From contig NZ_RKHR01000004.1 of the NCBI RefSeq assembly GCF_003752585.1, forward strand, positions 960,054 through 1,024,053: a stretch of 64,000 bases of DNA, given 5' to 3'. Shown here in pieces: positions 33,001 through 36,000 of the stretch. How positions within the stretch are numbered: position 1 is the first letter of the stretch; each line of letters begins with the position of its first letter. A program made the position numbers. This DNA comes from Sinobacterium caligoides (lineage in GTDB: Bacteria > Pseudomonadota > Gammaproteobacteria > Pseudomonadales > Sinobacteriaceae).

Positions 33001-36000
33001 ATAATTTAATTTTATTACTTAGAGAATTCTTCTTCAGAAATAACGCTATAAGAATTTCTCTCTTTGGAATACTCAAGAAGGACCACTCGATCACCCTTAG
33101 TAAAGCGCTCCCCCCCTCTCGTTCTAACCTTTAATATTAGTCCTGCACCACCATCTTCTAGTACAGCCTCACCAAACTCACCATCAACGCGAGACGTTCT
33201 AACGATCGCAGACTGACCCAAGATATACTTGACCGTTTGCTGCTGACTTTTATTGAACAAAGGCCTCAGCGGCTTAATAATAAAAGCAGTAAGCTGTACT
33301 GACACATAGAGACTAAACGCCAGCACTGGCAGCCCAGCCATATAACGAAAAAATCCAGGCTCAACGAACTGAAACAAGAAGTGCACCATGTAATAACAAA
33401 TTAACCATCCGCAAAGTGTCATTATGGAGAGAATAATAGTGACCGGTACGCCGTTGAGCCCATAGCGCAACATCAAACCTGCCAGCGTATCTAGATTTGT
33501 TAGGTTGCTCGTGGAATTAACGCCTAACTCACCGTCAGCATCTGGAATGTCGATATCAAGGATATCAAGGTCGACAAAACCCAACACCGCTACCAGCCAG
33601 TACAAGGCGCTCATCAGCAAAAAGAAGGTGAAAAACACTGTAGGAAATGATGCGATGTTCTGATAGAACGGGTCCATACCTTCAGTCAGTAAAATCGCAA
33701 ACATGCTTAAACCCTATCGTTAGTATTATTATAGGTGCTGCCACACCCCCTAGCCCGATGCTTTGCCCCCTTTTATTCTCGCCAGAATATCATCAGCATT
33801 GCGTGTAGTCGAGGTAATGCCCGCCTCATCTAACTTTTCTTGCAGCGAGTCGCCGCTAGCATCTTCAGCTAACTCACTCGCAGCTGACAGTTGCGCCTCC
33901 TTTAGAGCCTGCTTTTCTTTTATTCGCTCAAGCGAGTCCATGGCTGTACGCATTTTAGACTGCGAACCACTATAACGATCTGCCACAGCGACTTGAGCTC
34001 GCTGAACATTCTCTGTCGCCTTAACCGTGTCGACCTGCTGCTTCAGACGCTTTATATTTCGCTCCGCCTGTTTGATTGCTTGGCGCAACTTATTGGCACT
34101 GGCAGCATAGCCAGTCTCGACATCCTTCTCTTGCTTTAGCTGATTTTCTATATCAGCGATTTTTTCCGCCACCTCACGCGCCAACGGTTCATCACCCTTC
34201 TCTAGCGCTTTCAAGGCATAGCCTTCAAATTGCTCAATTTGGCGACTATAGTCCTTGCACTTTTCTTCCGCTAGCTTTTGGTGAGCCATGATCTCAGCCA
34301 AGCTACCTTTTGATTCATGCAGCTCTTCAGAAGCCTCTCGCACCTCTTGGTCTAAAATTCTTAGCGCCTGAGTATCAACAATTGCTTCACCCGCCTCATT
34401 TACACCACCCCGTAAGGCGGTCATCATTTTTGCCCAAATACTCACTGATCTACTCCTTGCTTATTAGCTGGCCTCAACCGGAATTGATAAAAACTCACTA
34501 TAGGCCTCAGTTGCATGAATAACATTGCTCGCCAATGTCTCGATTTCAAAGACGATATTTGGCAAAATCGACGTCGAACTCAAGGCTCCAAACATATGAT
34601 AAAAATCACTACTGTGACCGGCCGAATCATGAACAATTCGATCAAGGCTAATGGTCGACAACGGGAAATACTTATGTGTTTTTAACACGGCCTCATTGAA
34701 CAGCGCAACATCGGCTACCTCGGCAACCGACCACAACATCGCCTCAGCGATAATTTGATCGCCAACGACCGTCACAAAGATCGGCAGATCACCATAACCA
34801 GTCATGATGACATGTAAAGCAGGCGAGACACCATCGATCAATTCCACCGTCGCCTCACCGCTGACAAAAATCTCTACCTCCTGCAAAGCCTCATACAGAC
34901 TATTTGTTGTCCAATTTTTAGTCTTATCTGTCATTCTACTCACTCCTATTGACTCTTCTTCGCCTGCAAGTCGTCGAAACTGTTTCTCGACCACTGCAAG
35001 TTGCTTGGCATTCTCCGGGAGAATCCACACTTCCTTCTTAACCAGTCCCTGATCACGAAGACGCTTTCTGTATTCACGCTGATAATGTGCTGATGATTTT
35101 GCTTTCATGAAATAAATATATGCCATTACATGTAACATGTCAACGAGCTTACATGTAACACATAAGCAACACTTGAATCAGACAGCAAAACCAACATTCA
35201 AAGAGGCGCACAAGATCAACAGCGACACCCCACCTACCAGCCACACAAGATAACTTCCTCATACCCCCAACAACCAACAACCAACAACCAACAACCAACA
35301 ACCAACAACCAACAACCAACAACCAACAACCAACAACTCCACCGCAATAAAAAACCAAAGCACAACATAGCAAGAAAAATAAAGCCCACAAAAAGCTAAC
35401 CGCAGTTAAAAAAAACACAATCAATTAAAAAAAATAAAATTTAAAAAACTTCACACTCCCTTAATATTCAACCGCCACAATCATCCGCGCATCCAGTTAC
35501 AAAAATACCAATTAATAGCATTTGGAAAGCAACGATGAAAAATAATTTATTAAAACTAGGGTTCACCCTAGCCGTTTCCGCTATACCGCTCAGCTCTTTC
35601 GCCGCCCAAAAGGCCATTCTCATAGGCATCGATGGCGTTCAGTACGAGAAAATGCAGGCGCTAGACACCCCCAACTTCCATCGCCTTACGATCAAAAAGA
35701 CTTACACCGGGGGAATCGCTGGCGACTACAGCGAACAAGGCACTTCCAGCGGCCCTGGCTGGTCCACAATACTCACCGGCGTCTGGGCCAACAAACACCA
35801 GGTCATATCTAACGGCTCAGGTCATGCTAGCGAGGACTTTCCAAGCATATTCCGCCGAATCATCACAGCAAAGCCCAACTTAACACAGGCATCTCTTGTT
35901 AACTGGTCACCCATCCATAGCCAGTTTTTCAGTAACGATGTCGACGACATTGCCGTAGCCAAAAAAGGGCTTAGCGATACCAGCGTAACCAGCTCCACCA

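What the first reader, a model, noticed from the sequence alone, without database searches (positions are those of the whole stretch)
35269..35338. Heptanucleotide tandem repeat (AACAACC)x10 in a divergent promoter region
Ten head-to-tail copies of a 7-nt unit sit between the start of the PspA-flotillin operon (minus strand) and the start of the NPP-hemopexin gene (plus strand). A repeat unit that is not a multiple of 3 in an intergenic region is the classic architecture of slipped-strand contingency loci, which change promoter spacing or UTR structure. Copy-number change here could phase-vary either or both divergent transcription units.
Basis: seen in the sequence. Interest (0 to 1): 0.55.

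Follow-up and report, generated by a model that had tools for sequence, protein, structure and literature searches.

The report
Perfect 7-bp microsatellite between divergent genes
A perfect ten-copy 7-base repeat really does sit between two divergently transcribed gene sets in the marine bacterium Sinobacterium caligoides. It lies more than 100 bases outside the one promoter that can be mapped, so it is most likely an ordinary, length-unstable microsatellite and not a proven genetic switch.

Summary
(CCAACAA)10.1 lies at 35267-35337, is 100% perfect and is the only such array in the 64 kb. It sits in the 426-bp gap between bacA, the first gene of a BacA-PspA-flotillin operon on the minus strand, and a secreted phosphodiesterase-hemopexin gene (NPP) on the plus strand. 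The genome is Sinobacterium caligoides.

The phase-variation reading is only partly supported.
- In favour: the unit length is not a multiple of three, the array is perfect with sharp edges, and the same unit AACAACC varies from 1 to 13 copies among Haemophilus influenzae strains.
- Against: a six-species footprint maps the bacA promoter and operator to 35109-35158. It consists of TTGACA-17-TATATT, a leaderless ATG and two TTACATGTAA palindromes, and it ends 108 bp from the array.
- Against: none of five relatives has a tandem repeat upstream of bacA.
- Against: every plus-strand promoter candidate for NPP lies to the right of the array, and all are weak.
- Untestable: only one genome exists and metagenomes gave no hit, so copy-number variation could not be checked.

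Best reading: a young, lineage-specific slippage microsatellite in unconstrained A/C-rich spacer DNA, neutral or at most a weak modulator. It is a new member of a known kind, of low interest.

The parts
35267..35337 (.). Perfect heptanucleotide tandem array (CCAACAA)10.1, equivalent to (AACAACC)9 plus AACAACT. The A/C-only strand is the + strand, which is sense relative to the NPP gene.
   Evidence: TRF result; sequence read; uniqueness and shuffle control. No in-phase degenerate copies in either flank. No secondary structure on either strand, MFE 0 and -0.2 kcal/mol.
35164..35488 (+). A/C-rich, G/T-poor intergenic tract in which the array is embedded (at least 75% A+C in 100-nt windows).
   Evidence: Composition scan. 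Two other tracts of this kind occur in the window (16653-17025, 22727-22946), always A/C-rich on the + strand. They share only about 65% compositional similarity with this one, not homology.
35109..35158 (-). Conserved bacA promoter/operator module. It comprises the -35 TTGACA (35143-35138), a 17-bp spacer, the -10 TATATT (35120-35115), then 6 nt to the ATG at 35108 (leaderless). Two TTACATGTAA palindromes lie at 35126-35135 (inside the spacer) and 35149-35158 (just upstream of the -35).
   Evidence: Consensus scan gives 11 of 12 matches. PWM score is 15.5 bits, against a maximum of 11.5 for any 440-nt window of the + strand. Four- and six-species alignments show the same elements at the same spacing, with conservation ending upstream of the distal palindrome. 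Palindrome pair confirmed.
34464..35108 (-). bacA (YjfI/DUF2170 family, 214 aa as called by NCBI), first gene of the bac-like operon. It has a nearly invariant N-terminal extension of about 45 aa.
   Evidence: Pfam DUF2170 E=1e-47. Homologues are named 'YjfI family' or 'biofilm formation regulator BacA'. Alignment of 23 homologues. PDB 8q8o is a DUF2170 protein that matches residues 64-208 only.
25602..34445 (-). Rest of the minus-strand operon: PspA/IM30 (33750-34445), a 229-aa membrane protein (33015-33704), a 650-aa flotillin-like protein (31025-32977) and a 1766-aa DUF3686/AAA ATPase (25602-30902).
   Evidence: ORFs and Pfam hits. The gene order bacA - PspA - about 225-230 aa - about 650 aa recurs in relatives. 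The homologous P. aeruginosa bac cluster is described in PMC10948618 and PMC2587700.
35535..37298 (+). Secreted type I phosphodiesterase/nucleotide pyrophosphatase-like metalloenzyme with C-terminal hemopexin repeats (587 aa, with a signal peptide).
   Evidence: Pfam PF01663, PF01676 and PF00045. 100% identical to an S. caligoides protein; the next homologues are 57-59% identical.
35440..35467 (+). Best, but weak, sigma-70-like candidate promoter for the NPP gene: TTTAAA-16-TAATAT, preceded by an A-rich tract. The predicted TSS is near 35474, giving a 5'UTR of about 61 nt.
   Evidence: PWM scan gives 7.1 bits, which equals the median best score of random 440-nt windows, so it is not significant. 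The consensus scan found no plus-strand promoter. This part is inference only.

Best explanation
The array is a young, lineage-specific microsatellite. It arose by slipped-strand mispairing in a long, poorly constrained A/C-rich spacer between two divergent transcription units of Sinobacterium caligoides.

Ten perfect 7-bp units should gain and lose units at a rate far above the point-mutation rate. Heptamer loops are also expected to escape mismatch repair; this rests on established knowledge and was not tested here. The copy number is therefore probably polymorphic.

The array lies 108 bp beyond the conserved bacA promoter/operator, 123 bp from its -35 hexamer. It lies about 100 bp upstream of the only plus-strand promoter candidates for the NPP gene, and 197 bp from the NPP start codon. 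Unit changes would therefore alter only the length of the spacer between the two promoter regions and their helical phase: 7 bp is about 240 degrees, and three units are about two turns.

The most likely consequence is none, or a weak graded effect. An ON/OFF switch is unlikely.

Shown here: the existence, perfection and uniqueness of the array; the position of the bacA promoter; the absence of a repeat in relatives. Inferred: hypermutability, the position of the NPP promoter, and the lack of a strong regulatory effect.
For: - The array is perfect and unique in the window. It has sharp edges with no degenerate halo and no hairpin potential, which fits simple slippage of recent origin.
- The bacA promoter is very strong by consensus (11/12; 15.5 bits). 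It is phylogenetically footprinted in six species together with two operators and a fixed 6-7 nt gap between the -10 and the ATG. No conservation extends beyond 35158-35160.
- Five relatives' bacA loci contain no tandem repeat, and the genes upstream of bacA differ in every relative. The spacer is therefore lineage-specific.
- NPP is not next to bac in the relative examined.
- Plus-strand promoter candidates lie only to the right of the array.
- The array is embedded in one of three A/C-rich intergenic tracts in the window. These contain CCAACAAC-like words, which are plausible proto-repeats.
- Heptamers are reported as the commonest long-SSR class in prokaryotes, attributed to polymerase slippage (Mrazek et al., as summarised in PMC4679880).
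- (CCAACAA)n of at least 3 units recurs in more than 120 places in very different phyla and contexts.
- No other long SSR occurs in the 64 kb. Genomes that rely on contingency loci usually carry many.
Against: - Ten perfect copies is long for a bacterial SSR.
- In H. influenzae, 7-bp arrays about 70-100 bp upstream of hmw1A/hmw2A do modulate expression without lying between the -35 and -10 (PMC2651432). Distance from the core promoter therefore does not exclude an effect.
- The NPP promoter is not mapped. Its best candidate scores at background level, so the array could still lie in a long 5'UTR or in an upstream regulatory region.
- The A/C strand of the array is sense to NPP. This is the orientation favoured for such arrays just upstream of genes elsewhere: 23 sense against 8 antisense within 100 nt.
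- No population data exist in either direction.
Confidence: 0.55

Rival explanations
1. The array is an hmw-like 'volume control' or phase-variable locus for the secreted NPP-hemopexin enzyme. It lies in the upstream regulatory region or a long 5'UTR of NPP, so slippage changes transcription or translation. This would create population heterogeneity in a secreted phosphodiesterase.
For: - The unit is not a multiple of three, the array is perfect, and it sits 197 nt upstream of NPP in the sense orientation.
- H. influenzae has a precedent in 7-bp arrays 69-106 bp upstream of hmw1A/2A. The very same AACAACC unit varies from 1 to 13 copies at a TonB-dependent receptor gene (PMC2651432).
- The S. 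caligoides NPP upstream region lacks the palindrome shared by six orthologues, so its regulation has been rewired.
- NPP has no recognisable strong sigma-70 promoter, so upstream elements may matter.
Against: - No promoter candidate lies upstream of or within the array.
- The array is about 100 bp from the nearest candidate -35.
- No copy-number variation data could be obtained.
- The organism is a free-living marine heterotroph, with a single long SSR in 64 kb.
- NPP orthologues examined have no upstream tandem arrays of this kind (sequences read).
Confidence: 0.2
2. The array phase-varies the bacA-PspA-flotillin operon by changing promoter geometry.
For: The array lies on the upstream side of the operon, 158 bp from the bacA ATG. 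A divergent-promoter precedent exists in the hifA/hifB TA repeats (PMC2651432).
Against: - The complete conserved promoter/operator (-35, -10, two palindromes, leaderless ATG) is 35109-35158, and the same module works in five relatives without any repeat.
- The array starts 123 bp upstream of the -35.
- No sigma-54 site that would call for a distant enhancer is present in the intergenic region.
Confidence: 0.05
3. The array, together with the A/C-rich tract, is transcribed as a long unstructured C/A-rich mRNA leader or RNA. It would serve as a platform for a single-strand RNA-binding factor (ribosomal protein S1, Hfq distal face or Crc-type A-rich motifs, or Csp). This would be analogous to heptamer direct repeats found immediately upstream of start codons in Beggiatoaceae, cyanobacteria and Bacteroidota.
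For: - (CCAACAA)n arrays in other phyla often sit 6-25 nt upstream of start codons in the sense orientation.
- A similar pattern and phylogenetic distribution is described for TAACTGA repeats, with a proposed translational role (PMC4679880).
- The RNA would be completely unstructured.
Against: - Here the array is 197 nt from the start codon, not adjacent to it.
- A purine-rich Shine-Dalgarno-like GGAAAG precedes the ATG.
- No promoter is predicted upstream of the array.
- No Rfam family matches.
Confidence: 0.07
4. The array is an assembly or sequencing artefact, or it is part of a real small protein-coding gene (the minus-strand 91-aa ORF at 35149-35424).
For: ORFs of 91, 51 and 34 aa run through the array on the minus strand. 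Repeats can in principle be mis-assembled.
Against: - Two independent assemblies of the read set both contain the array at the same junctions, and 71 nt is shorter than a typical Illumina read.
- The ORFs are a compositional by-product. The G/T-only strand cannot form stop codons, so it encodes a VVGCWLL repeat. They start with TTG or GTG and overlap the conserved bacA promoter.
Confidence: 0.02

Closest known systems
Haemophilus influenzae hmw1A/hmw2A upstream 7-bp repeats (TGAAAGA)n
   Same: A heptanucleotide, non-triplet tandem array of 13-38 copies lies about 70-105 bp upstream of a gene for a secreted or surface protein. It is not located between the -35 and -10. Copy number changes by slippage and grades expression (PMC2651432).
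   Different: In H. influenzae, copy-number variation and the expression effect are demonstrated. Here neither is. The array here is about twice as far from the start codon (197 nt), the host is a free-living marine bacterium, and the unit sequence differs.
Haemophilus influenzae (AACAACC)n at a TonB-dependent receptor gene (HI1369 homologue)
   Same: The repeat unit is identical, and the host is also a gammaproteobacterium. Strain-to-strain copy numbers of 1, 1, 6, 7, 8 and 13 show that this unit slips readily (PMC2651432).
   Different: There the tract is 13 bp upstream of, or inside, the reading frame, so it can frameshift or affect translation initiation. Here it is deep in an intergenic spacer. 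The loci are not homologous.
hifA/hifB (TA)n divergent-promoter switch of H. influenzae
   Same: A simple-sequence repeat lies in a shared intergenic region between divergent transcription units (PMC2651432).
   Different: From established knowledge, the TA tract forms the -35/-10 spacer of the overlapping promoters. Here the mapped bacA promoter has a fixed 17-bp spacer, conserved in six species, and the array lies 123 bp away from it.
Intergenic heptamer direct repeats of Beggiatoaceae, cyanobacteria and Bacteroidetes (TAACTGA; also cyanobacterial STRR heptamers, from my own knowledge), and the 'long SSR, 5-11 nt unit' class of Mrazek et al.
   Same: These are 7-nt units in perfect head-to-tail arrays, mostly intergenic, and heptamers are the commonest long-SSR class (PMC4679880). 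(CCAACAA)n itself is found mainly in cyanobacteria and Bacteroidota in my scan.
   Different: Those genomes carry tens to hundreds of arrays, typically within a few nucleotides of start codons. In this window there is a single array, far from either start codon.

Membership tests
SSR-mediated phase-variable / contingency locus | A perfect or near-perfect tandem tract long enough for frequent slipped-strand mispairing | tested here: met
   10.1 copies, 100% identity, 71 bp. The same unit varies among H. influenzae strains.
SSR-mediated phase-variable / contingency locus | The tract is placed where length changes alter expression: inside an ORF, between the -35 and -10, or in a demonstrated promoter or 5'UTR element | tested here: inconclusive
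   Not met for the bac operon: the conserved promoter/operator is 35109-35158 and the array lies at least 108 bp away. Unresolved for NPP: no significant promoter could be located, and the candidates lie to the right of the array. The array is not in a credible ORF.
SSR-mediated phase-variable / contingency locus | Copy-number polymorphism between strains or within a culture | not testable with these tools
   Only one S. caligoides genome or read set is in the collections. The metagenome scan for the flank gave 0 hits. The k=31 contigs break in the array and give no copy number.
SSR-mediated phase-variable / contingency locus | High-frequency, reversible change of expression or phenotype linked to tract length | not testable with these tools
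   Requires reporter, RT-qPCR or single-colony experiments.
SSR-mediated phase-variable / contingency locus | The genome carries a set of such loci, typically at surface or host-interaction genes | tested here: inconclusive
   There is only one long SSR in the 64-kb window.
Prokaryotic long SSR (unit 5-11 nt; heptamer class) | A head-to-tail array of a 5-11 nt unit, far longer than expected by chance | tested here: met
   The class is described via PMC4679880.
Start-codon-proximal heptamer direct repeats (TAACTGA-type) | The array lies within a few nucleotides upstream of a start codon, often replacing the Shine-Dalgarno sequence, with many arrays per genome | tested here: not met
   The array ends 197 nt before the NPP ATG and begins 158 nt from the bacA ATG. 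It is the only array in the window.

The most novel reading that the evidence does not exclude
The array is a selected, copy-number-tunable element in a free-living marine gammaproteobacterium. One version: it is a variable spacer that sets the helical phase and supercoiling coupling between the leaderless bacA promoter and the NPP promoter, with a period of three units. The other version: it is part of a long, unstructured C/A-rich NPP leader that recruits an RNA-binding factor. Either would give heritable but reversible heterogeneity in secretion of a phosphodiesterase-hemopexin enzyme.
Probability: 0.07. Interest if true: 0.45.

Novelty: new member of a known kind. Interest (0 to 1): 0.2.

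Why it matters
If the array did tune expression, it would extend SSR-based bet-hedging from host-adapted pathogens to a free-living marine heterotroph and to a secreted phosphorus-scavenging-type enzyme. As the evidence stands, it is one more example of the commonest class of long bacterial microsatellites (7-bp units).

Its practical value is twofold. It is a likely length-polymorphic marker for S. caligoides strains, and it is a known cause of contig breaks in short-k assemblies.

The more useful by-product is the clean footprint of a leaderless, palindrome-flanked bacA promoter conserved across Cellvibrionales-type bac operons. This bears on how the 'biofilm-associated cluster' is regulated.

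Tried and rejected
- **Rfam scan.** A scan of 34000-36500 at E<=1 gave no RNA family.
- **Strain comparison.** Exact-protein look-ups found only the same read set. Look-ups with the PspA product and with the NCBI 214-aa BacA found nothing on record.
- **Metagenome scan.** A scan for the right flank of the array gave 0 hits.
- **Genome-collection scan.** Whether its genome has other such arrays therefore remains unknown.
- **Pho box upstream of NPP.** The best match to two CTGTCAT half-sites is no better than in shuffles, both in S. caligoides and in nine orthologue upstream regions.
- **Sigma-54 promoter.** One was proposed for P. aeruginosa bacA (PMC10948618). No TGGCAC-N5-TTGC-like site lies in the intergenic region, and matches across the window are below the chance expectation.
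- **Degenerate older repeat copies in the flanks.** In-phase identity is below the shuffle mean on both sides.
- **Hairpin, cruciform or G-quadruplex-type structure.** MFE is 0 and -0.2 kcal/mol. The G-rich strand has only GG runs.
- **Dispersed element.** The idea that the three A/C-rich tracts are copies of one element is rejected. They show only about 65% low-complexity similarity.
- **Coding potential of minus-strand ORFs through the array.** This is a composition artefact.
- **Structure of BacA.** The DUF2170 domain is confident, but the N-terminal domain has low pLDDT as a monomer. I ran no fold search and make no claim beyond a weak MazE-like Pfam hint.
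Full report
**Observation.** The window contains a perfect tandem array at 35267-35337. Tandem Repeats Finder gives period 7, 10.1 copies, 100% matches, no indels and score 142, with unit CCAACAA, and the sequence read directly agrees. A two-unit probe with up to one mismatch hits nine times, all inside the array, against 0.03 expected from dinucleotide shuffles. No other array of similar length or purity is present in the 64 kb. Both strands are structure-free, with MFE 0 and -0.2 kcal/mol. The flanks contain no in-phase degenerate copies; their identity to the periodic extension is below the shuffle mean on both sides. 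The array is therefore sharp-edged and presumably young or continuously homogenised.

**Source and independent confirmation.** The NPP protein is 100% identical to a Sinobacterium caligoides protein on a 1.34-Mb contig. The next homologues are only 57-59% identical. The genus belongs to Spongiibacteraceae, Cellvibrionales. An independent Logan (k=31) assembly of run SRR8436388 has one contig starting about 30 nt inside the right part of the array. A second contig ends about 30 nt inside its left part. This is the expected behaviour of a de Bruijn graph at a tandem array longer than k. It confirms that the array is in the reads but not its copy number.

**Gene context.** On the minus strand, the ORF ending at 35138 is a DUF2170/YjfI protein (Pfam E=1e-47). 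NCBI calls it at 214 aa, starting at the ATG at 35108, and homologues are named 'biofilm formation regulator BacA'. It is followed by PspA/IM30, a 229-aa membrane protein, a 650-aa flotillin-like protein and a 1766-aa DUF3686/AAA ATPase. The same gene order is found in relatives. It corresponds to the P. aeruginosa bac cluster (PMC2587700 and PMC10948618). On the plus strand at 35535 starts a signal-peptide-bearing phosphodiesterase/metalloenzyme with hemopexin repeats.

**The minus-strand promoter is mapped and excludes the repeat.**
- The consensus scan finds TTGACA (35143-35138), a 17-bp spacer and TATATT (35120-35115), matching 11 of 12 positions.
- A PWM scan scores this promoter at 15.5 bits, against a maximum of 11.5 for the best site in any 440-nt window of the plus strand.
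- The -10 ends 6 nt before the ATG, so transcription is predicted to start at the A of the start codon. No Shine-Dalgarno sequence is present. The bacA mRNA is therefore predicted to be leaderless.
- Alignments with bacA upstream regions of three, then five, relatives (63-74% protein identity; Pseudomaricurvus, Saccharophagus, Exilibacterium and two metagenomic contigs) show the same architecture at the same spacing. A (T/C)ACATGTAA palindrome lies just upstream of the -35-like hexamer (TTGAC(A/G) in four of the six, TTGATT and CTTGCG in the other two). A second palindrome lies inside the spacer. A TAnnnT -10 follows, and then 6-7 nt to the ATG.
- Conservation stops abruptly upstream of the distal palindrome, which is 35149-35158 in the window.
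- The array begins 108 bp further out. None of the five related loci contains any tandem repeat, and the gene upstream of bacA differs in each.
- No sigma-54-type site, which could have implied a distant enhancer, occurs in the intergenic region.

On this basis the array is very unlikely to act through the spacing of the bac promoter.

**The plus-strand side is less clear.** No plus-strand promoter passes the consensus scan. In the PWM scan all top plus-strand candidates lie to the right of the array, at 35406-35467. The best is TTTAAA-16-TAATAT, with a predicted TSS near 35474. At 7.1 bits it equals the median best score of random windows, so it is not evidence by itself. No candidate lies upstream of or within the array. 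A Pho-box search was negative. Six NPP-hemopexin orthologues from metagenomes share a TTGGaCTAGtCCAA-like palindrome 30-60 nt before their start codons. That places their regulatory regions proximally. S. caligoides lacks this motif. NPP is not adjacent to bac in the relative examined. By analogy and by the PWM ranking, the NPP promoter is probably proximal. The array would then lie about 100 bp or more upstream of it. This step is an inference.

**The spacer.** The array is embedded in a tract of about 325 bp (35164-35488) that is at least 75% A+C on the plus strand. Two further such tracts exist in the window, at 16653-17025 and 22727-22946. They are A/C-rich on the plus strand regardless of flanking gene orientation, and they contain words such as CCAACAACC. 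Their similarity to the bacA-NPP spacer is only compositional, at about 65%. Most genes in the window are on the minus strand, and GC skew is uniformly negative on the plus strand. These tracts are therefore G/T-rich on the probable leading strand. They offer proto-repeats from which a heptamer array can be born by slippage.

**Evidence from elsewhere on this unit.**
The hits are mostly in cyanobacteria and Bacteroidota, with 3-16 copies.
- Contexts are mixed: some arrays are inside ORFs and others are downstream of genes. There is an excess of arrays within 100 nt upstream of a gene in the sense orientation, 23 against 8 antisense.
- Long arrays lie 6-25 nt before start codons of ordinary housekeeping genes.
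- This resembles the TAACTGA heptamer repeats described in Beggiatoaceae, cyanobacteria and Bacteroidetes. That paper also summarises that heptamers are the most abundant long-SSR class in prokaryotes (PMC4679880).
- In H. influenzae the identical unit AACAACC differs from 1 to 13 copies between strains at a TonB-dependent receptor gene. In the same species, 7-bp arrays about 70-105 bp upstream of hmw1A/hmw2A modulate expression (PMC2651432).

**Interpretation.** The perfect array is best explained as a slippage-generated, probably length-polymorphic microsatellite in unconstrained, lineage-specific spacer DNA. Perfection does not require selection, because slippage is much faster than point mutation. 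The array lies outside the mapped bacA promoter/operator and probably upstream of the NPP promoter. Unit changes would then alter only spacer length and helical phase: 7 bp is about 240 degrees, and three units restore the phase. I give about 0.55 to 'neutral or at most weakly modulatory'. I give about 0.2 to an hmw-like graded control of NPP, about 0.05 to control of the bac operon, about 0.07 to an RNA-leader role, and about 0.02 to an artefact or a coding role. Minus-strand ORFs through the array are a by-product of an A-free strand.

**What could not be done.** There is one genome and one read set. The metagenome scan gave no hit. The k=31 contigs stop in the array. Expression effects need experiments.

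**Verdict.** The locus is a new member of a known kind, the long heptanucleotide SSR, and a possible but unproven contingency locus. Interest is low.

Noticed in passing
window 35106-35160 (minus strand); L123, L124, L126, L208, L209 upstream of bacA: bacA appears to be transcribed as a leaderless mRNA, with the -10 TAnnnT ending 6-7 nt before the ATG and no Shine-Dalgarno sequence. The promoter is bracketed by two (T/C)ACATGTAA palindromes 23 bp apart, one of them inside the -35/-10 spacer. All of this is conserved in six species. It suggests repressor control of the bac operon, possibly autoregulation, and it differs from the sigma-54 promoter proposed for P. aeruginosa bacA (PMC10948618).
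   Followed up: partly
window 34935-35108 (minus strand), BacA residues 1-58: The N-terminal 45 or so residues of BacA (MKAKSSAHYQREYRKRLREQGLVKKEVWILPENAKQL...) are nearly invariant across 23 homologues and more conserved than the DUF2170 domain. They are absent from the solved DUF2170 structure 8q8o. They give only a weak MazE-like Pfam hit (E=0.054), and AlphaFold models them poorly as a monomer. This is a candidate DNA-binding domain for the palindromes.
   Followed up: partly
L127, L128, L131, L132, L134, L139, 30-60 nt upstream of the NPP-hemopexin start codons: Orthologues of the NPP-hemopexin gene from metagenomes share a palindrome of the form TTGGaCTAGtCCAA (TGG-N6-CCA), reminiscent of GntR/DasR-type operators. 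The motif is absent upstream of the S. caligoides gene and of L122. The gene family is common in chitinolytic genera.
   Followed up: partly
window 16653-17025 and 22727-22946: Two more intergenic tracts have at least 75-80% A+C on the plus strand. This holds irrespective of flanking gene orientation, and no tract has the opposite bias. They contain CCAACAAC-like words but are not homologous to the bacA-NPP spacer. The cause of this one-strand bias is unexplained; one possibility is an extreme leading-strand G/T bias in unconstrained DNA.
   Followed up: partly
L075 5079-5190, L007 1878-1961, L100, L074, L024, L104 and others (genome-contig hits): In Bacteroidota and cyanobacteria, (CCAACAA)n arrays of up to 16 copies sit 6-25 nt upstream of start codons of ordinary genes (Sir2-like, sulfatase, mechanosensitive channel, TrpC-like) in the sense orientation. 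Within 100 nt of a gene, 23 arrays are sense and 8 antisense. This echoes the published TAACTGA heptamer pattern.
   Followed up: partly
L001 1-30 and L207 1-30 (Logan contigs SRR8436388_45 and _96): The short-k public assembly of the same strain is split exactly at this array, and both contig ends carry about 30 nt of repeat. This is a practical example of a 71-bp microsatellite fragmenting k=31 assemblies.
   Followed up: yes
window 25602-30902 (minus strand): A 1766-aa protein with an N-terminal DUF3686 ('ATPase involved in DNA repair'), a DUF7902 and a C-terminal AAA+ module lies directly downstream of the flotillin-like gene. It is apparently part of the extended bac operon. Its function is unknown.
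   Followed up: no
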